From Candidatus Poribacteria bacterium (GTDB lineage: Bacteria > Poribacteria > WGA-4E > WGA-3G): a stretch of DNA of 64,000 nucleotides. This document shows, piece after piece, positions 16,260 through 58,950 of the stretch. The notes under the pieces are model-generated. The model saw nothing but the letters and a program-made list of their open reading frames with translations, was not told the DNA's origin and did not search any database. Position 1 is the first letter of the stretch. Each line of letters opens with the position of its first letter. The stretch lies in contig OY282386.1 of NCBI GenBank assembly GCA_958295945.1, forward strand, positions 2,906,204-2,970,203. Direction: 5' to 3'. A program made the position numbers and the translations under genes.

Positions 16260-16480
16260 ACAATTTCTCCCAATTTTCTTATGAGGGTTTTACACAACTA
16301 ATGATTTGATCAGGCTGCACGATAACCCTCTGCATCGCGCATTTTGCTATCAACTTTCATCTATGATAACAATTTGCAAAAAAATAATCAAGAATATTGT
16401 CTTTTGTGGGGTGTGTGTAAAGTATTTGTCACATCATCCCATTATAGTAGATTTTGAAAGGACTTGAACACTCTGCATCA

Positions 16481-16506
16481 GCGAGGTTAGAAAACCTCGC
16501 CTACCG
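16481..16506 (-). repeat. REP-like element copy 3: stem gcgaggtt/aacctcgc, AGAA loop, then CTACCG
   Basis: Same stem-loop-plus-CTAC(C)G architecture in the 340-bp gap between the SBP and ATPase genes. Confidence 0.5.
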
Positions 16507-16602
16507 TGGGTCGACAGTGTCAACTTATATTTATAATTCACTATAAAGTCTACTATATTCGGACACCTGTTGACTCACTGGACTTATGTGTGACAGAAAC
16601 CA

Positions 16603-18129
16603 TTACTCACAATTGGTTAAACCAAGCATTAGTTTTCCCAATTCTTGATGATTTGTTTCGTTCGGTATTACTACACCAACGATCACGCCATTAAACATTA
16701 CTGCAATCCTATCAGAGAGTTCAAGTAGTTCGTCCAACTCAGAAGAGACAAGTATTATCGCTTTTCCACGATTACGCGCTTGAATAAGCCTTGTATGAAC
16801 AAATTTTGCAGCATGAATGTCCAATCCGCGTGTTGGATGTGCAGAAATAATCAACGTTGGATCACCAGATAACTCACGAGCGACAACAACCTTCTGCTGA
16901 TTCCCACCTGATAACGTGCTAATTGGATCGTATATATTTCCAACCCGTATTTGATACTTATCCAATGCATTCATAGAGAATCGCCGAATATTTTCTGTAT
17001 GTAGTATTGCGTTTCGTAAAAACAGATTTTGTGTATGTCTTCCTATGATAAAGTTCTCATCGATGCGATTATTCAGACTTACACCGTGTCGGTGTCTGTC
17101 CGCAGGTAGATGTGCGACTTTTCTCTTACGGAATTCTGCTGGTGATGCATTGGTGACAGATTCACCGTTAAATGTAATATATCCTTTGTCTATCTTACGC
17201 AATCCGGTTAGCATTTCAACAAGTTCTGTCTGTCCATTGCCTTCAACGCCAGCGATGCCGACAATTTCGCCTGAATACACATCAAGTGTAATCCCGTTTA
17301 GTAACCTTTTAGAAGTATCAGATGTCACTGTAATATCATCTAATCTTAGTATTGGACGATTTTGCTCTATATCCTTTCGTTCAATAGCGTTCTGTGTTAC
17401 AGGTTCTCCAAGCATGAGTTCCGCTAACTCATGTGGATCTGTTTCTGATACAGACCGGGTAGTGATAGATTTTCCGCGTTGCATGACTGTCACAGTATCT
17501 GCTATCGTCATTACCTCGTTGAGTTTGTGTGTAATGATGATAATACTCCTGCCTTCCTTTTTCAGACCACGCATACAATCAAATAATCCTTCAATCTCTT
17601 GTGGAACAAGTACTGCTGTCGGTTCATCCATAATCAGTATTTCTGCACCGTGGTAAAGGACTTTAAGGATTTCTGTATGTTGTTGTGCCCCAATTGGCAG
17701 CGATTCAATTGAAACATTTAATTGGACATCAAACCCAAGTTCATTTGAAAGTTCTATGATTTCTTTTTCAGCTTCATGATAGTCAATTAGAGTTCCATAT
17801 TTTCGTGTTTCCTTTGCTAAGATAATATTCTGAAGTGCGGTAAAAGTAGGTATCAAAGTGAAGTGTTGTTGGATCATTCCTAAACCGAGTTGCATTGCCT
17901 GTTTTGGAGTAGAGATATTAACAGATTGTCCATCAACATATATTTGTCCAGAATCCGGTTGTTGCAGTCCGTAGAGAATATTCATCAAAGTCGATTTACC
18001 TGCACCGTTTTCACCTACGATAGCATGAATTTCACGTTGGTTGAGTGAAAAATCCACATTTTCGTTTGCTTGCACAAGTCCAAATCTCTTGTTGATGCTG
18101 CGCATCTCTATTACGGGAATCTGTGACAT
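16603..18129 (-). CDS. ABC transporter ATP-binding protein with two fused ABC domains (sugar/nucleoside importer type)
   Basis: Two Walker A sites (GENGAGKST and GVEGNGQTE-type), signature LSGGNQQK and Walker B ILIMDEPT; 508 aa. Confidence 0.8.
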   Translation of the reverse strand: MSQIPVIEMRSINKRFGLVQANENVDFSLNQREIHAIVGENGAGKSTLMNILYGLQQPDSGQIYVDGQSVNISTPKQAMQLGLGMIQQHFTLIPTFTALQNIILAKETRKYGTLIDYHEAEKEIIELSNELGFDVQLNVSIESLPIGAQQHTEILKVLYHGAEILIMDEPTAVLVPQEIEGLFDCMRGLKKEGRSIIIITHKLNEVMTIADTVTVMQRGKSITTRSVSETDPHELAELMLGEPVTQNAIERKDIEQNRPILRLDDITVTSDTSKRLLNGITLDVYSGEIVGIAGVEGNGQTELVEMLTGLRKIDKGYITFNGESVTNASPAEFRKRKVAHLPADRHRHGVSLNNRIDENFIIGRHTQNLFLRNAILHTENIRRFSMNALDKYQIRVGNIYDPISTLSGGNQQKVVVARELSGDPTLIISAHPTRGLDIHAAKFVHTRLIQARNRGKAIILVSSELDELLELSDRIAVMFNGVIVGVVIPNETNHQELGKLMLGLTNCE

Positions 18130-18196: not shown

Positions 18197-19369
18197 TCAT
18201 CTTTTTGCAAAGCATTTGCGATATAACGCGATGATTTCTTCTTGAGTTGTTTGTCTTGGATTGTTGGCTGGACTTCCACTTGCAATTGCATCCGCAGCCA
18301 TTTGCTCCACAACTTTTTCAAACCTCTCTTCATCAATACCGATTTGTCCGAGACGCGGCATATCAATATCGATGACAAGTCGTTCAACAGCAGTAATCGC
18401 AGCATCTGCTTGTTTCATTAGCGATAATCCGTCTATCTGTTCACCCATTGCTTCTGCTATGTCAGCGAACCGTTGCGGAGCACCGACAACACTAAACTCC
18501 ATTACATCAAGCAACAGCACTGAATTTGATAAACCGTGATGAATGTGAAAATATGCACCTATGGGTCGGGACATGCCGTGCACTAACGCAACAGACGAAT
18601 TGCTGAATGCCATGCCTGCGATAGATGCACCGATCATCATATCTGTTCGTGCTGAGATGTTCTCTCCATCAGACCATGCTTGACGAAGTGAACTTGAAAT
18701 CAGTCTTATTGCTTTCAATGCAAGTGTGTCGGTTATCGGTTGTGAGTGCTTTGAGACATACGCCTCAATTGCGTGCGTCAAGGCATCAACACCGACAGCT
18801 GCGGTCAGATGGGGTGGTGTTGTGAGTGATAGCGTTGGATCTACTATGGCAATAGAAGCCAGTAGACAAGCACTGCTCAGCATCATTTTAACGTTGCGTT
18901 CTGTGTCTGTTATAACGGTTACTTTGGATACTTCGCTACCTGTTCCTGCAGTGGTTGGTATTGCAATTAGCGGGGTACCCTGATTTGGGATTTTGTCTAT
19001 ACCCATGTAATCTGTGAATTCTCCATCATTTGTGAGTTTGACAGAGATACCTTTGCCGCAGTCAATCGCGCTGCCGCCTCCGATACTCACAATTAAATCG
19101 CAGTTTTCGTCAGCAAATTGGTTTACCCCATCTGTAACATTTTGTAATGTCGGATCGGGGGTTACATCTGCGAAAATAGTGGAGATTATGCCAGAGTTGT
19201 ATAAGTTTTTGGCTATTTGGTCAGCATACCCAAGTTTTTGGATTCCTGGATCTGTGACAATGAGTGCTTTGGTTGCACCGAGCCGTTTTGCTTGTTCACC
19301 AACTTTTTCGGATGCACCTGCACCGGTGATTATTGTGGAAGGGAGTGAGAATGTGGTAGGCAATTTCAT
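18197..19369 (-). CDS. Iron-containing (group III) alcohol dehydrogenase
   Basis: GGGSAIDCGK and the metal-binding His cluster (...HGMSRPIGAYFHIHHG...) match the Fe-ADH family; 390 aa. Confidence 0.8.
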   Translation of the reverse strand: MKLPTTFSLPSTIITGAGASEKVGEQAKRLGATKALIVTDPGIQKLGYADQIAKNLYNSGIISTIFADVTPDPTLQNVTDGVNQFADENCDLIVSIGGGSAIDCGKGISVKLTNDGEFTDYMGIDKIPNQGTPLIAIPTTAGTGSEVSKVTVITDTERNVKMMLSSACLLASIAIVDPTLSLTTPPHLTAAVGVDALTHAIEAYVSKHSQPITDTLALKAIRLISSSLRQAWSDGENISARTDMMIGASIAGMAFSNSSVALVHGMSRPIGAYFHIHHGLSNSVLLLDVMEFSVVGAPQRFADIAEAMGEQIDGLSLMKQADAAITAVERLVIDIDMPRLGQIGIDEERFEKVVEQMAADAIASGSPANNPRQTTQEEIIALYRKCFAKR

Positions 19370-19466
19370 TTTCCAAATTTAAGTATTTCAAACAGAATTT
19401 CTAATGTTTTATTACTAACTTGAATCTTTATATTGATAGCGTTTTCAGGTATGATCAATACCATAC

Positions 19467-19798
19467 CTATCGTAACGTGAGTTTGATATAAAGGTTAGAA
19501 AAACCGATACAATATATAACATTTATCACAGATTTGATGACGGGCATGTTCTGGCATTCCAGTGGAGTGCTATGTCTATAGAAAATCCAAACACAAAGTT
19601 CTTGCACTCCAGCGGAGTGCTATGTGTGATAATCTCACATACCGCTCCGCTGGAGCGGAAACACTGGTTCGGATGAATACTATAAACATATTGCTCCGCT
19701 GGAGCAAAGAAGGTGTTTGGGTTACGTTGGAACTGCTTTAGTTTAATTGAATTCCCCTGATGAACCAATCTCTTATATTCGAACTCACGTTATCGTAG
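19467..19798. mobile_element. MITE-like structured element (~330 bp) with 21-bp imperfect terminal inverted repeats and internal direct and inverted repeats of a CTCC-N3-GGAG core
   Basis: TIRs are 19467-19487 (ctatcgtaacgtgagtttgat) and 19778-19798 (ttcgaactcacgttatcgtag), matching 16/21 in reverse complement. Internal 27-bp direct repeats lie at 19554-19580 and 19604-19630 (22/27). Inverted copies (ctccgctggag) lie at 19645-19655 and 19694-19704. The element is non-coding. Confidence 0.4.
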
Positions 19799-19836
19799 AT
19801 TTGTACCATTTATGAGGGAAACTATCCTCTATAAAG

Positions 19837-20589
19837 TCATTTCGTTGTGATATAGTATCCCCAACCTTCATCTGTCTCTTCTATCTCAACTGTGATACCT
19901 AAATCTCGAAGTTCTCCTATAGGTATACCTTGTTCAAAGGCATTATAACCACCATTTGCTTTCATCCACTTAAAAAACACAAGAGTGCGATGTGTAGATC
20001 CGGATGGAAATAAGGTATACGTTGCTTCCAATCCAGCAATTTCCTCATCTATTGTCATTGGAGGATTTCGCATATACTCCATGTAAGTATGTACTTCTGG
20101 AATATCTCCAAACCTTTCAAGGAGTTGGTTATACTGTGCACTATGAAGTTCATCTGGATCCATCGTTTCTGGATCGCCAATCCACGTACCGCGCGCTTTT
20201 GTATCCATTTCGGCATCAATAGTATCATGCCATGGATTCCTTTGAAGAGAGTGTTCATTTGTGAGCACGTCGTTCTGCGATTCTTGTTCTGTCCATTCTT
20301 CATTTGCTTTATTGTCTTTTTCCTTTAACAGATCTGAACCTTCGTGATGAATTGATGAATCAGATTCATCAGCAGATTTCAGATCACCTGGATTCTTAAC
20401 AATATCTTTTACATTTTGATCTGATGGTCTTGTGTTTGTATTCTCTTGATTTTCAGCAGGCAGTAACTCCGTGAGTTTGTCTGTAGAGTCGAGTGTGTGG
20501 AAGTTTGTTGAGAGGTAAAGTGGGACAAGAATGACAATAAACGGGATGAGAAAAATCAGTTTTTTCATACTGGTTTCTCCATTGGACAA
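19837..20589 (-). CDS. Secreted acidic hypothetical protein (250 aa)
   Basis: Signal peptide MKKLIFLIPFIVILVPLYLS (probable start at the internal MKK). No recognisable domain. Confidence 0.5.
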   Translation of the reverse strand: MSNGETSMKKLIFLIPFIVILVPLYLSTNFHTLDSTDKLTELLPAENQENTNTRPSDQNVKDIVKNPGDLKSADESDSSIHHEGSDLLKEKDNKANEEWTEQESQNDVLTNEHSLQRNPWHDTIDAEMDTKARGTWIGDPETMDPDELHSAQYNQLLERFGDIPEVHTYMEYMRNPPMTIDEEIAGLEATYTLFPSGSTHRTLVFFKWMKANGGYNAFEQGIPIGELRDLGITVEIEETDEGWGYYITTK

Positions 20590-20714
20590 TAGGTAGTCAA
20601 CTACTTGTATGACAAAAGTGGAGTAAAGGAAACTCCGTTCGTAATATCTATAAACGAATCTTGATATGATTATAGCATATTGCTCTCATCAAATCAAGGT
20701 TTTATAGTTTCAAT

Positions 20715-20781
20715 CCTAATGCCGGAAATGGCGGATACCTGTCAATACCATTGCCATACCGTAAGCGTCCGCAGTTTCAAT
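20715..20781 (-). repeat. 67-bp duplicate (66/67 identical) of the 3' end of purH (last 21 codons plus stop), a candidate attR-like remnant
   Basis: cctaatgccggaaatggcggatacctgtcaataccattgccataccGtaagcgtccgcagtttcaat differs from 23575-23641 at one base. The native copy encodes ...IETADAYGMAMVLTGIRHFRH*. Confidence 0.7.
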
Positions 20782-20871
20782 GAAAGATAACCTAATATGT
20801 TATATCCTTATGTTGCATGTATAAAATAAAATCAATTAGGATTTTTGAGTAGGGATCGGCTTCCAAATGTA

Positions 20872-21186
20872 CTAAGTGTCCAAAGGCACACGACAGATAC
20901 CGATCAAATCAAGTCCTCGGTTAAGTTGTTTCTCAGTAATCTGAAAATCAGAGACTGTGATAGCATACATCACATCACGACTGGTAATGCTTATGAAAGA
21001 CTTTAACAACTGACCTCCTACATCAAAACTAAATTGTAATAACCGCTTAGGAAGCCGTTGTCGCAGATTCAGGATATCCCACTTAAAAATATTTCGAATG
21101 TGGTGTTCGCGTATGTCTTGAAATTGATGTACTTTTGAATTACCTTGAAGCGCGTAAAGTGTTACGTCTTTAAAACTCGTCAACAA
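20872..21186 (-). CDS. Hypothetical protein or gene fragment (104 aa from a TTG start; frame open to ~21222 without an ATG)
   Basis: ORF only; no canonical start. The upstream in-frame extension ...WPYHEREYTADEFREF... suggests a truncated gene. Confidence 0.3.
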   Translation of the reverse strand: MLTSFKDVTLYALQGNSKVHQFQDIREHHIRNIFKWDILNLRQRLPKRLLQFSFDVGGQLLKSFISITSRDVMYAITVSDFQITEKQLNRGLDLIGICRVPLDT

Positions 21187-21280
21187 AAACTCTCGGAATT
21201 CATCAGCGGTGTATTCGCGTTCATGGTAGGGCCACTGAAAACCAGTTGCACGTCATAAGATGTACATGTTTTTCATAAAG

Positions 21281-22921
21281 TTACTCCTTCTGTGAGTCAT
21301 CAGCGTTTGAAGGCTGTGAACGTTTTGGTGGCGGCACCTTTTGCGGATTTCTGCGGAAATACTCAGCCAGTTCTGGATCATCCTTTGCGAGTCTTCGCAA
21401 TCCCTCTTTTGGTCCGTGGTTCTGCAAAATTTGCTTCGCCTTGTTGAACCGTTCTGGAGTTAGCGGTTTTGGCGTGATTTTTTCACGGAGTGCATCCTCA
21501 AGACTTGCCTCAGTTGGAAGTCCGGGTAGCAGTTGTTGGCGTAGTTGTTTTTCAAGTTCGGTAGCAATTTCTGCATCGGACATAGTTGCGAATTTTTCAA
21601 GTTGTCGGACCTCCCGCATGAACTGTTCAAATTCGGGTTGCCGTCCGACTTCTTCTACATGTCGTTCGAATTCTTCTCTGGCGCGTTCGAATTCTTCTCT
21701 TTCACGTTGTTTTTGAAAATCCAATTCGGTATCTGTGTTTTCTGGTGGAAGAAATTCCTCAAAGTCGTCAGAATCTGGTATAGGCGCATCTTTGTCCCAC
21801 CATTCTTCGGGAGGTGGGTTTTCACCTTCTGCCAACATCTTACGGAACTCTTCTCGTTTAAATGGAGGAGGTTTCTCCTCAAGGGTCTTTCCCATTTCAT
21901 CAAGATATATAATTTCAATTCCTTCCGGTTCAATCCCTCTAAAGAGGAGGCCAAACTGTTGTTCTCTGGTGAGGGATGCTCCAATGTAACTCACACGGTA
22001 ATCGGATTTGCGCTGCACGTAGGTCATTTTCCTACCTACATAAAAGGGCAGTTCCGTTTCGTTATTAGATCCGGCAAGCCCCAGAAAATGAATACGTTCA
22101 TCTGCACGCCGAGCATTATGAAAACGTTGCTTATAATCAATTTCTTTTTCAAGATGAGCAGTTTTAAGTGCCTCTATATCAGACGCAGGAATTCCCAGGC
22201 CTCTTGAACGCATTTCCCGGAACTGTAGGTCATTTTCAATGGTAATTAAGTCCCCTCTGATCCTCATATACTCTGAATATTCGGCTGCATTTTGTATGGT
22301 AAGACCTCTATCAAGAATCGATTGGAGCCACTGTTGGGGAGGGTATATTCTATCAATCTCGCTAGATAACTTGCCTTTGTTGTAGTTGGTGTGAAACGCA
22401 TCCATTAGTGCTTCAACGGTTTGGGGACCGGTATGTTTTTTGCCGACTGTATCATAAGCTGGTGTATCATCATAAGCTGGTGTATCGGTGATATCCACCT
22501 TGACATCAGATTCAGACACCAATGGTGGTGTATCGGATTTCTTTTTTTCCTTTTCTGCAGCAGCTATAGCGATGGATCGGACTTGTTTACGGAGCTCAAC
22601 AAGTTCTTCATCGGTGAGCGTCCAATGTTTTTTTGCTGCTGCATCTATGAATTTTTTCATTGCGACATCTATCTGTTTTTCTATCCAAACATCCCAAGGA
22701 TCCGTATCATCCGCGAGATGTTTTGAAATTTCCTTGCGGTTGGTTGAGGCATGGTCCGTGGAATCCTCCCATGATTTTTCACTAATGACAGAATTTTCTG
22801 TCTTAGATTGAGTGAAGAGATAGATTCCTACAATAAGAATCAAACAACCTATTAATCCGCCGAGAAAAAACTTGTTAGAAAAAAGTTTCATTTTGTTATC
22901 TCCTTGTTTAAGATTCTTCAA
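21281..22921 (-). CDS. Membrane-anchored, highly charged low-complexity protein (546 aa) with internal short repeats
   Basis: N-terminal TM segment (FFLGGLIGCLILIVGIYLF). Repeats TDTPAYDDTPAYDT and REEFERAREEFERHV. The C-terminal half is E/R/K-rich and looks coiled-coil or disordered. Confidence 0.55.
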   Translation of the reverse strand: MKNLKQGDNKMKLFSNKFFLGGLIGCLILIVGIYLFTQSKTENSVISEKSWEDSTDHASTNRKEISKHLADDTDPWDVWIEKQIDVAMKKFIDAAAKKHWTLTDEELVELRKQVRSIAIAAAEKEKKKSDTPPLVSESDVKVDITDTPAYDDTPAYDTVGKKHTGPQTVEALMDAFHTNYNKGKLSSEIDRIYPPQQWLQSILDRGLTIQNAAEYSEYMRIRGDLITIENDLQFREMRSRGLGIPASDIEALKTAHLEKEIDYKQRFHNARRADERIHFLGLAGSNNETELPFYVGRKMTYVQRKSDYRVSYIGASLTREQQFGLLFRGIEPEGIEIIYLDEMGKTLEEKPPPFKREEFRKMLAEGENPPPEEWWDKDAPIPDSDDFEEFLPPENTDTELDFQKQREREEFERAREEFERHVEEVGRQPEFEQFMREVRQLEKFATMSDAEIATELEKQLRQQLLPGLPTEASLEDALREKITPKPLTPERFNKAKQILQNHGPKEGLRRLAKDDPELAEYFRRNPQKVPPPKRSQPSNADDSQKE

Positions 22922-23118
22922 GTTAGTGCACTAATGTATAAGACACATGCTAACACGTCTTCGGTTTAAGAACAACAATATCTGTGCCATGTCCTTCCGG
23001 ATGTAAAAACCCCACCTGCAACAAAAAAAGTCCAAACGAAACGCACACCCAAAGACAGCGCGATCGTGAAGACTCCAGATATAGATTTGTAATATGAAAA
23101 AATTAGTGGATTTTCGCT

Positions 23119-23130
23119 GGGGGGGGGGGG
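23119..23130. repeat. Homopolymeric G12 tract in an AT-rich non-coding stretch
   Basis: ttttcgctgggggggggggcacgg read directly. It lies ~200 bp upstream (minus-strand sense) of the 546-aa gene start. Confidence 0.8.
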
Positions 23131-23574
23131 CACGGACAACCAAGAGCATATATTGCCCTTGAGCAAATTCTTTCTCAAATAATAAGTACTTAGGATCGAT
23201 TTTTTCTTAATTATTGTGGTACTCAAGTGTTTATTATTCATTTTTAAATCCCACTCCACTTATTGAGTTATAGTATCATAACACAAATTCCGGTAAATGT
23301 CAAATTTATTTAAAAAAATTCGTAAAATTTCTTAGTTTTTCACTGTCTCCCTGCCATCACAAAGACGGTGAAGATGCAAGACCGATTGTCGCACCCATCA
23401 CCATAACTTTTCAATCGGTAGTTTTCCAATGTGTCGATCTCGTTTGAAAGTTTCCCTGACCAATTCGAGAGTGAAATACCGAGATTACCAGAAGTCCACT
23501 CATCCGGTTGATACTCACGCCGTGCTAAACTCCAGCGCGGTATCATATCAGAATAGTCCCTGTAATCTTCAAAC

Positions 23575-25158
23575 CTAATGCCGGAAATGGCGGATACCTG
23601 TCAATACCATTGCCATACCATAAGCGTCCGCAGTTTCTATCACCAAGTCATCATTTACAGAGCCACCGGGTTGGATGATTGCACGGATGCCTGCTTCACC
23701 GGCAATCTCCACGCCATCAGGGAATGGGAAGAAAGCATCAGAAGCTAAGACAGAATCTTTTGCCTTTTCTCCTGCTTTACGAACAGCGATAATCGCAGCA
23801 TCTACACGACTCATCTGCCCCGCACCGATTCCTACTGTTTGTGTCCCTTGCGCAAGTAGAATACAGTTGGATTTGACATGCTTGCATGCTTTCCATGCAA
23901 ATAACAAGGATTCTATCTCTTCGTGCGTGGGTTTACGTTTTGAGACAACTTGTAAATCACTTCTAACAATGTGATGTACATCTTGTTCTTGAACAAGCAC
24001 ACCGCCACTGACATTACGTATTTGCATAGGATTTGTTACTGTAGACGGAGTGTGGCTACTACTATTCAAAGGTCCTGTTTCAAGTATTCTACGGTTTTCC
24101 ACGCGGGACAATGCATACAATGCTTTATCAGTGTAACTCGGAGCGATAATTGCTTCTATTTTCACTCCAGATTTTGCTGCTTCGCGTATCGTATTCGCTG
24201 TTTGAATGGTAACTTTACGGTTTAAGCCTACAATTGAACCGAATGCAGAAGTTTTGTCACATTCAAGTGCGTTTGTAAATGCATCTTGGAGGTTTTCAGC
24301 ACTTGCAAGTCCACACGGATTGTTGTGTTTGATGATGGCACATGCAGGTGTTTTGAAGTCCTTCACTATTTCTAAGGCAGCATCCAAATCGAGGATGTTA
24401 TTGAAAGATAAGGGCGAACCATTCAGTTGTTTTGCCCAAGCAGCGCACGGACCGGGTTTTGTATCAGTTCTGTAAAATGCAGCACTCTGATGTGGATTCT
24501 CACCATATCTCAACGAATCTGCTTTATGATATTGTAGTGAAAGTGTATTACTGAATTCATCGTTATTATCTAAATTGGCAAGATAGGTAGAAATTGCTCT
24601 GTCGTAATGTGCGGTGTGGAGGAAGGCTTTTTTTGCTAACTCAAAGCGTAACTCGTCGGAGAGACATCCATCGTTAATATCTAAATCAGAAATAATCTGT
24701 GCATACTGGTTAGAGTCAGTTAGGACTGCAACTTGCTGATAGTTCTTGGCTGCGGCGCGAATCATTGTTGGTCCGCCGATGTCTATATTTTCAATGGCAT
24801 CTTCAAGGGTGACATCAGGTTTGGCAACTGTTTCCTCAAATGGATAGAGGTTGCAAATCACCATGTCAATGGGTTTTATGCCGTTTTCTTCTGCTTGTGC
24901 TGCATGTTCAGCATTATCCCATTGTGCAAGCAAGCCGCCATGGACTTTAGGGTGAAGTGTCTTAACTCTCCCATCTAACATCTCTGGAAAGCCAGTGTAT
25001 TCAGAGACATCAATAATCTCTATACCTGTTTCACGAAGATGTTTAGCAGTGCCGCCAGTGGAAAGTATTTCAACCTTATGTTGTACGAGTGCATTTGCAA
25101 TGTCAATTAGGTCAGTCTTATCATAAGTACTGATGAGCGCGCGTTGAATCTTTTTCAT
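23575..25158 (-). CDS. purH: Bifunctional AICAR transformylase / IMP cyclohydrolase
   Basis: The N-terminal MGS-like IMP cyclohydrolase domain begins MKKIQRALISTYDKTDL...LSTGGTAKHL. The AICARFT domain follows. The C-terminus GMAMVLTGIRHFRH is the conserved PurH end. Confidence 0.9.
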   Translation of the reverse strand: MKKIQRALISTYDKTDLIDIANALVQHKVEILSTGGTAKHLRETGIEIIDVSEYTGFPEMLDGRVKTLHPKVHGGLLAQWDNAEHAAQAEENGIKPIDMVICNLYPFEETVAKPDVTLEDAIENIDIGGPTMIRAAAKNYQQVAVLTDSNQYAQIISDLDINDGCLSDELRFELAKKAFLHTAHYDRAISTYLANLDNNDEFSNTLSLQYHKADSLRYGENPHQSAAFYRTDTKPGPCAAWAKQLNGSPLSFNNILDLDAALEIVKDFKTPACAIIKHNNPCGLASAENLQDAFTNALECDKTSAFGSIVGLNRKVTIQTANTIREAAKSGVKIEAIIAPSYTDKALYALSRVENRRILETGPLNSSSHTPSTVTNPMQIRNVSGGVLVQEQDVHHIVRSDLQVVSKRKPTHEEIESLLFAWKACKHVKSNCILLAQGTQTVGIGAGQMSRVDAAIIAVRKAGEKAKDSVLASDAFFPFPDGVEIAGEAGIRAIIQPGGSVNDDLVIETADAYGMAMVLTGIRHFRH

Positions 25159-58526: not shown

Positions 58527-58950
58527 TTGAATTCCTTAAATATTAGGTTTTGGATAACCGATAATATCATAACTTTGCACAATTTACAAGAGAATTGAGA
58601 CCTATGGGTATGTCAGTTTTTTTGCATGCATATTGTATCTGTCTTGTTGAAGGAGTGAAGTGCCATCGATTTTTTAGACCATAATTTCGTAAAGTTAAGA
58701 CAAGTTTTTTTGTTCAAATTCAATAGGAGTTAAATAACCTAATGCCGAATGAGGTCGTTTCTGGTTGGACACTTGTTCAATAAAATGTCCAATGGTAGAC
58801 GAGATCTCCGAACCTCGCAGATGCTGAATGTTCAAGTAATTTCAAAATCTACTATAACTTTACATACAAACACAATTTCTCTTGATAAATCTTTCTAATA
58901 TTGATAAACTAACAATATAAATGTGTTTAAATGACAAGGAGGACGTAAAG

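What the first reader, a model, noticed from the sequence alone, without database searches (positions are those of the whole stretch)
20715..23641. Direct 67-bp repeats of the purH 3' end bracket a 2.8-kb AT-rich insert (integration scar?)
The last 21 codons plus stop of purH (23575-23641) recur, 66/67 identical and in the same orientation, at 20715-20781, which lies 2.8 kb downstream of purH. A gene 3' end duplicated in direct orientation around an insert is the classic attL/attR footprint of site-specific integration into a gene's 3' end. The segment between the copies contains an AT-rich non-coding stretch with a G12 tract, a 546-aa membrane-anchored low-complexity protein and a start-less 104-aa ORF. 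It has no integrase, so it would be a decayed or satellite-type island, or else a product of local duplication.
Basis: partly seen in the sequence, partly recalled or inferred. Interest (0 to 1): 0.55.

Follow-up and report, generated by a model that had tools for sequence, protein, structure and literature searches.

The report
Decayed gene island scar at purH
The repeat is real: it marks where a roughly 9-kb block of cell-surface sugar-modification genes, carrying no recombinase of its own, was inserted into the end of the housekeeping gene purH in a sponge-symbiont (Poribacteria) genome. This strain keeps only a 2.8-kb deleted remnant, so it is an ordinary kind of integration scar, though at a target gene I found no report of.

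Summary
Window 20709-20781 and 23568-23640 are 73-nt direct repeats (70/73 identical, 0 expected by chance). The second copy is the last 21 codons, the stop codon and 7 nt downstream of an intact purH.

The genome is Candidatus Poribacteria. Sister species L001 and L086 have an empty site (purH, one copy of the segment, the 250-aa gene, Fe-ADH). Most of the 80 Poribacteria species examined have purH next to Fe-ADH. So the 2,786 bp between the copies is an insertion.

Same-species strains (L081, L088, L085, L090) carry a 9.2-9.5-kb island at the same junctions: an orphan 68-aa ORF, a conserved leader, p546, p98, p221, a PMT-type glycosyltransferase, GT4, GT2 and a methyltransferase. The window has lost 6.75 kb of it, and the "start-less 104-aa ORF" is the methyltransferase's C-terminal stump.

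The near-identity of the copies is secondary. In other strains they are about 77% identical, so in the window the distal copy has converted the end of purH.

I found no integrase in the island, in the window, or in this hotspot in other species. The insert is not compositionally foreign (41.3% vs 40.2% GC).

The most likely mechanism is site-specific integration by a recombinase acting in trans, as for CIME-like elements. Illegitimate recombination remains a live rival. Interest is modest.

The parts
23575..25158 (-). purH (bifunctional AICAR formyltransferase / IMP cyclohydrolase), intact, 527 aa. This is the target gene.
   Evidence: Pfam AICARFT_IMPCHas E=4.5e-113 and MGS E=7.5e-26. Orthologues of 67-91% aa identity occur in 80 Poribacteria genomes.
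23568..23640 (-). Proximal repeat copy X1 (attL-like): the last 21 purH codons, the stop codon and 7 nt downstream. In this strain its 5' two-thirds have been overwritten by the distal copy through gene conversion.
   Evidence: for the repeat; window X1 against U1 is 66/69, L081 X1 against U1 is 53/69, and L090 X1 against L088 or L085 U1 is 53-54/69.
20782..23567 (-). Island remnant (2,786 bp) between the repeat copies. It is absent from the empty sites of L001 and L086. It corresponds to L081 9329-11617 joined to 18373-18845.
   Evidence: blastn against L001, L086 and L081. Junction alignments.
23340..23546 (-). Orphan 68-aa ORF (p68) in the left arm of the island. It is doubtful as a gene.
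   Evidence: No Pfam, NCBIfam or PHROG hit. The only database relative is the same ORF in a same-species contig.
22892..23136 (-). Conserved ~240-nt leader upstream of p546. It begins with a homopolymer (G12 on the plus strand at 23123-23134, which is C12 in gene sense).
   Evidence: Alignment with L081 cassettes 1 and 2, L082 and L083. The tract is C12 here against C6TC2, C6, C7 and C6 elsewhere. No Rfam match. Covariation is weak.
21281..22891 (-). p546 (536 aa from the conserved ATG). It is a membrane-anchored, Poribacteria-restricted protein of unknown function and the first gene of the glycosylation cassette.
21253..21276 (-). Remnant start of the p98 gene (MKNMYIL*), ending at the 6.75-kb deletion junction (about 21254-21257).
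   Evidence: The window sequence ...ATGTACATCTTAT|GACGTGCAACTGG equals L081 11617 joined to 18373.
20872..21252 (-). C-terminal 126-codon stump of a class I SAM methyltransferase, a pseudogene.
   Evidence: 97.5% nt identity to L081 18373-18755, the 3' part of a 267-aa gene with Methyltransf_11/23/25 hits. L085 and L088 keep the intact gene.
20709..20804 (-). Distal scar U1 (attR-like). It consists of a 73-nt purH 3' copy (20709-20781) and a 23-nt island-side flank (20782-20804). The same flank recurs next to a second, decayed purH scar (U2) in sister strains.
19837..20697 (-). Native downstream gene p250 (243 aa from the ATG at 20568) and its promoter-like site (20669-20697). In empty-site genomes it directly abuts purH.
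   Evidence: Promoter scan finds TTGATT-17-TATAAT with TG.

Best explanation
The two repeats are the left and right junction scars of an accessory gene island inserted at the 3' end of purH in one Poribacteria species.

In its intact form the island is about 9.2 kb (9.5 kb where an IS has inserted into it). It reads: orphan p68, a conserved leader, p546, p98, p221, a PMT/ArnT-type glycosyltransferase, GT4, GT2 and a SAM methyltransferase. This looks like a cell-envelope glycosylation cassette. It has no recombinase.

Insertion left purH intact. It displaced a second copy of the last 73-85 nt of purH to the far end of the island, directly in front of the native downstream promoter and gene (p250).

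The window's strain then lost 6.75 kb from the middle of the island, from p98 codon 8 to the middle of the methyltransferase gene. It also homogenised the two purH ends by gene conversion. That conversion is why the copies look nearly identical here.

Shown:
- the insertion and its polarity;
- the island's content;
- the deletion;
- the gene conversion;
- the absence of a recombinase in cis.

Inferred: the original joining was done by a site-specific (tyrosine- or serine-type) recombinase encoded elsewhere or since lost. That would make the island a CIME-like, cis-mobilisable element whose attB is the purH 3' end.
For: Empty sites. L001 (purH 91% aa) and L086 have purH, a single copy of the segment, p250, Fe-ADH and ABC. 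L001 11519-11597 matches both window copies. In 80 Poribacteria species, purH is followed by Fe-ADH after as little as 33 bp, and none has p546 near purH.

The same junctions with more cargo.
- L081 is 96-97% identical in nt and has 9.5 kb between the purH end and the distal purH copy.
- L088 has the intact version with an uninterrupted 412-aa GT4 gene.
- L085 and L090 each show one junction.

The deletion junction is defined to the base.

Gene conversion. Window X1 against U1 is 66/69. The same comparison gives 53/69 in L081 and 53-54/69 between L090 and L088 or L085.

The original copies were different purH alleles, both with intact reading frames. U1 and its downstream flank are L086-like. 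X1 in L090 is L001-like. At about 77% identity over 70 nt, RecA-driven crossover is unlikely.

For site-specificity. Sister strains carry a second, decayed scar (U2) between p250 and hicB. U2 has the same non-purH flank (TATAACATATTAGGTTRTCYTTCRTT) joined at the same purH position, but it is fused to a different host background: a TAA stop and L002-type downstream sequence. The same junction in two host backgrounds is what a site-specific recombinase produces.
Against: No integrase, resolvase or other recombinase was found:
- none in any version of the island;
- none among the ORFs of 150 aa or more in the 64-kb window that are not obvious shadow ORFs, where the only hit is one DDE transposase at 1034-2074;
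- none among sampled cargo ORFs at the purH/Fe-ADH hotspot in other species.

The island has host-like GC content. It has a paralogous cassette elsewhere in the L081 genome, so it looks like ordinary chromosomal DNA.

Exact-match searches for the attR/attP junction found nothing in JGI metagenomes or IMG/VR. No circular or attP form is known.

An independent purH 3' fragment in L032 is 145 nt long, not 73-85 nt. That event, at least, did not use the same breakpoint.

U2 could also arise from a single original event followed by homologous exchange inside the short purH-like core.
Confidence: 0.55

Rival explanations
1. Homology-facilitated illegitimate recombination during DNA exchange between Poribacteria lineages. 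Donor DNA carrying purH followed natively by the cassette recombined homologously within purH on the left. On the right it was joined illegitimately 73-85 nt before the end of the recipient's purH. The recipient's own purH end was therefore kept as the distal fragment. No recombinase and no circular intermediate are needed.
For: No recombinase was found anywhere.

U1 and the adjoining downstream DNA are the same (L086-like) allele. The purH-proximal copy in L090 is a different (L001-like) allele, as expected if the distal copy is the recipient's and the proximal copy is the donor's.

purH is visibly mosaic between strains: third-position differences cluster at alignment columns 1322-1391 and 1517-1562.

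The purH/Fe-ADH gap is a flux hotspot, ranging from 33 bp to 6.5 kb with unrelated cargo.

L032 has a purH fragment of a different length, 145 nt.

The island has host-like GC content.
Against: No genome among the 80 species has the proposed donor arrangement, with p546 next to purH and no scar.

The second scar U2 shares the identical island-flank/purH junction but sits in a different host background. Two illegitimate events would not share a junction. This model therefore needs an extra homologous swap inside a core of about 80 nt.
Confidence: 0.3
2. RecA-dependent Campbell integration. A circle carrying the cassette and one purH 3' fragment was formed by recombination between the flanking repeats in a previous host. 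It then integrated by a single homologous crossover in the purH end.
For: The geometry is identical to that of site-specific integration. The repeats would allow excision and re-integration among close relatives. Gene conversion between the copies shows that they do interact by homologous recombination.
Against: The unconverted copies are only about 77% identical, and the longest identical run is about 14-17 nt. That is well below what RecA needs for efficient crossover (established knowledge). The model also does not explain how the first duplication arose.
Confidence: 0.1
3. Local tandem duplication of the purH end followed by divergence. On this view there was no insertion.
For: Two same-orientation copies lie 2.86 kb apart. 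The island's cargo has a paralogous cassette elsewhere in a sister strain.
Against: The sequence after the two copies differs immediately: island DNA after one, native p250 promoter after the other. Nothing else local is duplicated. The closest relatives have empty sites. In L081, cassette 2 was brought next to the island by an IS-mediated rearrangement. That genome's p250, hicBA and Fe-ADH lie about 5 Mb away.
Confidence: 0.03

Closest known systems
CIMEs (cis-mobilisable elements) and decayed integrative elements at the 3' end of housekeeping genes, for example the ICESt1/ICESt3 family at the 3' end of fda in Streptococcus thermophilus (from my own knowledge, not checked in the library)
   Same: The island sits at the 3' end of an essential metabolic gene, and that gene stays intact. 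It is flanked by direct repeats that include the gene's end. It has no integrase or excisionase of its own. It carries accessory, surface-related cargo. Sister strains show successive scars in tandem (U1 and U2).
   Different: No cognate integrase-bearing element is known for purH or in Poribacteria. The repeat is longer (73-85 nt) than typical CIME att sites. No excision, circular form or attP has been observed. The cargo has host-like composition.
Genomic islands and prophages integrated into the 3' ends of tRNA or tmRNA genes
   Same: There is a direct duplication of the 3' part of the target gene. The complete gene lies at one junction and a displaced fragment at the other. Relatives have empty sites. 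Decay by internal deletion and IS insertion is seen.
   Different: The target is a protein-coding gene. The window has no tRNA. There is no integrase, no phage or conjugation genes, and no GC anomaly.
Homology-facilitated illegitimate recombination, as described for natural transformation in Acinetobacter and Streptococcus (from my own knowledge)
   Same: One end is anchored in a conserved gene and the other end is joined without homology. No recombinase is needed. It fits a hotspot between conserved flanking genes and the mosaic state of purH.
   Different: This process usually deletes recipient DNA rather than duplicating 73-85 nt of it. It does not predict the shared junction of U1 and U2.
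Variable polysaccharide or glycosylation loci exchanged between conserved flanking genes, such as capsule and O-antigen loci
   Same: The cargo consists of glycosyltransferases (PMT_2, GT4, GT2) and a methyltransferase. The content varies between strains. IS insertions and internal deletions are present. Paralogous cassettes have mosaic identity of 83-98%.
   Different: Those loci are normally swapped by double homologous crossover in the flanking genes, and they do not leave a duplicated gene end.

Membership tests
Site-specifically integrated genomic island (integrase-mediated, attL/attR) | The insert is bounded by direct repeats that duplicate part of the target | tested here: met
   73-nt repeats at 20709-20781 and 23568-23640. 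The same junctions occur in L081, L085, L088 and L090.
Site-specifically integrated genomic island (integrase-mediated, attL/attR) | Related genomes have an empty site with a single copy of the repeat | tested here: met
   L001 and L086 have purH, one copy, then p250. Most of the 80 species have purH next to Fe-ADH.
Site-specifically integrated genomic island (integrase-mediated, attL/attR) | A tyrosine or serine recombinase gene lies within or next to the island | tested here: not met
   No Phage_integrase, Resolvase or Recombinase hit in the island (window, L081, L084, L088) or among the window ORFs of 150 aa or more that are not obvious shadow ORFs. The rest of the genome could not be searched.
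Site-specifically integrated genomic island (integrase-mediated, attL/attR) | Independent integrations share the same junction position | tested here: inconclusive
   U1 and U2 share the island-flank/purH junction but have L086-type and L002-type downstream DNA respectively. A single event followed by homologous exchange in the core cannot be excluded. L032's fragment has a different length.
Site-specifically integrated genomic island (integrase-mediated, attL/attR) | Excision to a circular form carrying attP | tested here: inconclusive
   Exact-match scans for the junction found nothing in JGI metagenomes or IMG/VR. However, the relevant sponge read sets are not in those collections.
Site-specifically integrated genomic island (integrase-mediated, attL/attR) | Composition differs from the host chromosome | tested here: not met
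   The insert has 41.3% GC against 40.2% for the window. The L081 island has 42.3% against 41.5% for its flanks.
CIME-like cis-mobilisable element | Flanked by att sites, with no recombination or transfer module, and mobilised by a related integrase-bearing element at the same attB | not testable with these tools
   The first two parts are met (see the rows above). No integrase-bearing element at purH was found in 80 species loci. Mobilisation would need an experiment or read-level data.
Transposon or IS insertion with target-site duplication | A short target duplication (2-15 bp), terminal inverted repeats, and a transposase | tested here: not met
   The duplication is 73 nt. No terminal inverted repeats lie at the island ends. 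The only transposases are later IS insertions in L081.
Tandem (local) duplication | The repeated unit includes the DNA between the copies, or the flanks of the two copies are identical | tested here: not met
   The flanks diverge immediately after TTGAA. The intervening DNA has no local paralogue in the window.

The most novel reading that the evidence does not exclude
The last ~85 nt of purH may be a dedicated attachment site for an as-yet unidentified Poribacteria recombinase. That recombinase would move integrase-less gene cassettes in trans and stack them one after another, each insertion leaving a purH-end scar. The array purH-island-U1-p250-U2-hicBA seen in sister strains would be the result. 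This would be an integron-like or CIME-like cassette accretion system that diversifies the cell surface of uncultivated sponge symbionts.
Probability: 0.12. Interest if true: 0.6.

Novelty: new member of a known kind. Interest (0 to 1): 0.3.

Why it matters
The finding gives a base-resolved example of how accessory cell-surface glycosylation genes enter, decay and are reshuffled in Poribacteria. These are uncultivated sponge symbionts for which mobile-element biology is almost unknown.

It identifies the purH/Fe-ADH junction as a gene-flux hotspot across the phylum.

It also carries a methodological caution. A near-perfect att-like repeat can result from later gene conversion rather than from the original recombination site. 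Repeat identity in a single genome therefore should not be used to date or classify an integration.

If a recombinase specific for the purH end exists, it would be a new attB specificity and a possible tool for these organisms. As it stands, this is an ordinary decayed island.

Tried and rejected
- Local duplication: rejected on the junction sequences and the empty sites.
- Foreign composition: rejected.
- Tandem accretion of two cassettes in L081: rejected. That genome's p250, hicBA and Fe-ADH lie about 5 Mb away behind a copy of the same IS family, so cassette 2 was juxtaposed by an IS-mediated rearrangement.
- My first reading of L081's two copies as clean BOP'/POB' hybrids with a crossover in GGTATCCGCCATTT: withdrawn. 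L086 and L090 showed that both 'types' are natural purH alleles of close relatives, and that homologous-recombination tracts ending at the island borders could produce the same pattern.
- Integrase search: negative in window ORFs, in island versions and in hotspot cargo of other species.
- p68 as a decayed integrase: no support. It is an orphan restricted to this species, and no other ORF of 25 aa or more in 23140-23574 is informative.
- Rfam on 19300-24000 and 16300-16650: nothing.
- Structured RNA in the conserved leader: RNAalifold on four sequences gave weak covariation.
- Junction pattern scans of JGI metagenomes (two scans) and IMG/VR: zero hits.
- Literature: no report of purH as an attB or of Poribacteria genomic islands.
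- Direct repeats around the p546 module in L082 and L083: none.
Full report
OBSERVATION

Window 20709-20781 and 23568-23640 are direct repeats of 73 nt with three mismatches. The exact 46-mer core occurs only at these two places, with none expected in 100 shuffles.

The proximal copy is the stop codon, the last 21 codons of purH and 7 nt downstream. The purH ORF is 23575-25158 on the minus strand, 527 aa, with full-length AICARFT_IMPCHas and MGS matches. The distal copy keeps the frame ETADAYGMAMVLTGIRHFRH*.

ORGANISM AND EMPTY SITES

A scan of GTDB species genomes with the purH protein returned 80 loci. Apart from one labelled only 'uncultured bacterium', all are Candidatus Poribacteria, at 67-91% aa identity.

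In the closest one, L001, the gene order is hexapeptide transferase, purH, p250, Fe-ADH, ABC ATPase. L001 11519-11597 aligns to both window copies. A second sister species, L086, shows the same empty site.

Across the 80 species the gap between purH and Fe-ADH ranges from 33 bp to 6.5 kb, and no locus has a p546 homologue near purH. The 2,786 bp between the copies is therefore inserted DNA. The purH/Fe-ADH junction is a general hotspot. Its cargo elsewhere includes fn3, WD40 and DUF1670 proteins and an IS200-like transposase, but no integrase.

WHAT THE INSERT IS

The 536/546-aa protein belongs to a family of 57 hits; every hit that carries a name or whose contig was looked up is Poribacteria. 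None has a Pfam, NCBIfam or useful PHROG match.

Looking up its 95%-identical homologue led to L081/L084, a 6.4-Mb contig that is 96-97% identical in nt to the window. There, purH is followed by:
- p68
- p546
- p98
- p219
- p72
- a PMT_2 glycosyltransferase
- a GT4 gene split by an IS
- GT2
- a 267-aa SAM methyltransferase
- the distal purH fragment (L081 18846-18918)

.

Window 25205-21257 equals L081 7691-11617, and window 21254-20568 equals L081 18373-19060. The window therefore lacks 6.75 kb of the island. The junction reads ...ATGTACATCTTAT|GACGTGCAACTGG and has no real microhomology.

This explains two features of the finding. The ORF 'MKNMYIL*' is the first codons of p98. The 'start-less 104-aa ORF' is the C-terminal stump of the methyltransferase.

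Other contigs of the same species confirm the picture:
- L088 has the intact island with an unsplit 412-aa GT4 gene.
- L085 keeps methyltransferase sequence upstream of the window's deletion point.
- L090 shows the left junction.

The island is not compositionally distinct: 41.3% GC against 40.2% for the window, and 42.3% against 41.5% in L081.

THE REPEATS ARE NOT ORIGINALLY IDENTICAL

Over the first 69 nt, the two window copies match at 66 positions. In L081 they match at 53. X1 of L090 matches U1 of L088 or L085 at 53-54.

U1 is the same allele in all strains and resembles the native purH end of L086. So does the DNA downstream of it. X1 in L090 resembles the L001 allele throughout. X1 in L081 is L001-like in its 5' part.

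Only in the window is X1 of the U1 type. Here the distal fragment has converted the end of the functional gene. This changed the protein conservatively (for example ...VFTG to ...VLTG).

Differences between window and L081 purH are clustered in third codon positions, at alignment columns 1322-1391 and 1517-1562. purH is therefore a recombination mosaic.

My early reading of the L081 copies as clean hybrid att sites does not hold. Both 'types' are natural alleles, and homologous-recombination tracts that must stop at the island borders would give the same picture.

A SECOND SCAR

In L085, L087 (the L081 genome), L088 and L089, the spacer between p250 and Fe-ADH holds three things: a 109-nt repeat, a decayed purH end (U2, reading KTVDAYGMAMVFTSARQFRH*), and then hicB/hicA.

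U2 has the same non-purH flank as U1 (TATAACATATTAGGTTRTCYTTCRTT) joined at the same purH position. However, it ends in TAA and continues into L002-type downstream sequence.

The window's strain lacks U2 and hicBA. It has an L001-type spacer carrying a 376-bp MITE-like insert instead.

L081's 'cassette 2' is not a tandem accretion. That genome's p250, hicBA and Fe-ADH sit about 5 Mb away behind a copy of the same IS family, which indicates an IS-mediated rearrangement.

MECHANISM

Insertion with duplication of a gene's 3' end is the geometry of Campbell-type integration.

Against a homologous (RecA-driven) crossover: the unconverted copies are about 77% identical, with at most 14-17 nt of continuous identity.

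For a site-specific recombinase:
- purH is preserved exactly.
- The U1/U2 junction is shared between two host backgrounds.

Against a site-specific recombinase:
- No recombinase is present in any island version, among the window's ORFs of 150 aa or more apart from obvious shadow ORFs, or in hotspot cargo elsewhere.
- Exact-match scans found no attP-like junction in JGI metagenomes or IMG/VR.
- The composition is host-like.
- An independent purH fragment in L032 is 145 nt long.

The main rival is homology-facilitated illegitimate recombination. In that model a left crossover falls inside purH and a right end is joined 73-85 nt before the recipient's stop codon. It fits the allele pattern (the distal copy and its downstream DNA are one allele, the proximal copy another) and the hotspot. 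It needs an additional homologous swap to explain U2, and no donor arrangement was found.

My estimates are about 0.55 for a trans-acting or lost site-specific recombinase (a CIME-like island), 0.3 for illegitimate joining, 0.1 for RecA-driven Campbell integration, and under 0.05 for local duplication.

COMPARISON WITH KNOWN SYSTEMS

It works like integrase-less, att-flanked islands at the 3' ends of tRNA or housekeeping genes. CIMEs at fda in Streptococcus thermophilus are the example I recall; this is from memory and was not checked.

Membership in the integrase-mediated class is not established. The repeat and empty-site criteria are met. The recombinase-in-cis and compositional criteria are not met. 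Excision could not be tested. Full-text searches found no report of purH as an attachment site or of Poribacteria genomic islands.

VERDICT

This is a real but ordinary feature: a decayed accessory island scar at a target gene not previously reported. It comes with a useful caution about gene conversion between att-like repeats. Interest is 0.3, and the novelty class is a new member of a known kind.

Noticed in passing
window 19432-19807: A 376-bp MITE-like insertion lies between p250 and Fe-ADH. It is absent from L001 and L086. It has terminal inverted repeats (19462-19486 and 19779-19803) and an internal ~50-bp repeat or palindrome block (19548-19705). Weak relatives occur in L015 and L018.
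   Followed up: partly
window 16442-16550 and 58794-58858; also L085 1428-1536, L087 10731-10839, L088 8658-8766: A 109-nt dispersed repeat contains a tRNA-like string (GGTAGGCGAGGTTTCCTAACCTCGCCGATGCAGAGTGTTCAAGTCC, with an anticodon-arm-like hairpin and a T-loop-like GTTCAAGTC). ARAGORN and Rfam are both negative. In sister strains a copy sits directly next to the second purH scar.
   Followed up: partly
window 22892-23136 (homopolymer at 23123-23134): The ~240-nt leader upstream of p546 is 83-96% identical in nt among cassettes whose proteins are only 59-84% identical. Its 5' homopolymer is C12 (gene sense) here, against C6TC2, C6, C7 and C6 in homologues. It could be a phase-variable tract or a conserved cis-regulatory RNA. 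There is no Rfam match, and covariation on four sequences is weak.
   Followed up: partly
window 23575-25158 compared with L081 7738-9321: purH is a recombination mosaic between strains of one species. Of 61 differences, 13 lie at third codon positions in alignment columns 1322-1391 and 10 lie in columns 1517-1562.
   Followed up: partly
L032 13924-14180: An independent purH 3' fragment of about 145 nt lies 2.4 kb downstream of that species' purH. It is about 85% identical to that gene, and the differences are mostly synonymous. WD40-repeat genes lie between the two, and hicBA lies before Fe-ADH. This suggests that duplication of the purH end recurs in Poribacteria.
   Followed up: partly
L001-L080, downstream of purH: The purH/Fe-ADH junction is a gene-flux hotspot across Poribacteria. 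Gaps range from 33 bp to 6.5 kb and hold unrelated cargo: fn3, WD40 and DUF1670 proteins, an IS200-like Y1 transposase and sigma-factor-like genes.
   Followed up: partly
L081/L084 19075-20023 and L087 9041-9982 (same 6.4-Mb contig): Copies of a DDE_Tnp_4 IS sit at both breakpoints of a rearrangement. The rearrangement separates purH, the island and U1 from p250, hicBA and Fe-ADH by about 5 Mb. It places a paralogous glycosylation cassette (83-98% nt identity) next to the island. Both cassettes carry a DDE_Tnp_1 IS at the same place in the GT4 gene.
   Followed up: partly
L082 9765-11919 and L083 9918-11628: The module of leader, p546 and, in L082, p98 occurs at 85-87% nt identity in unrelated chromosomal contexts in other Poribacteria. 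No flanking direct repeats are present. The module appears to relocate on its own.
   Followed up: partly
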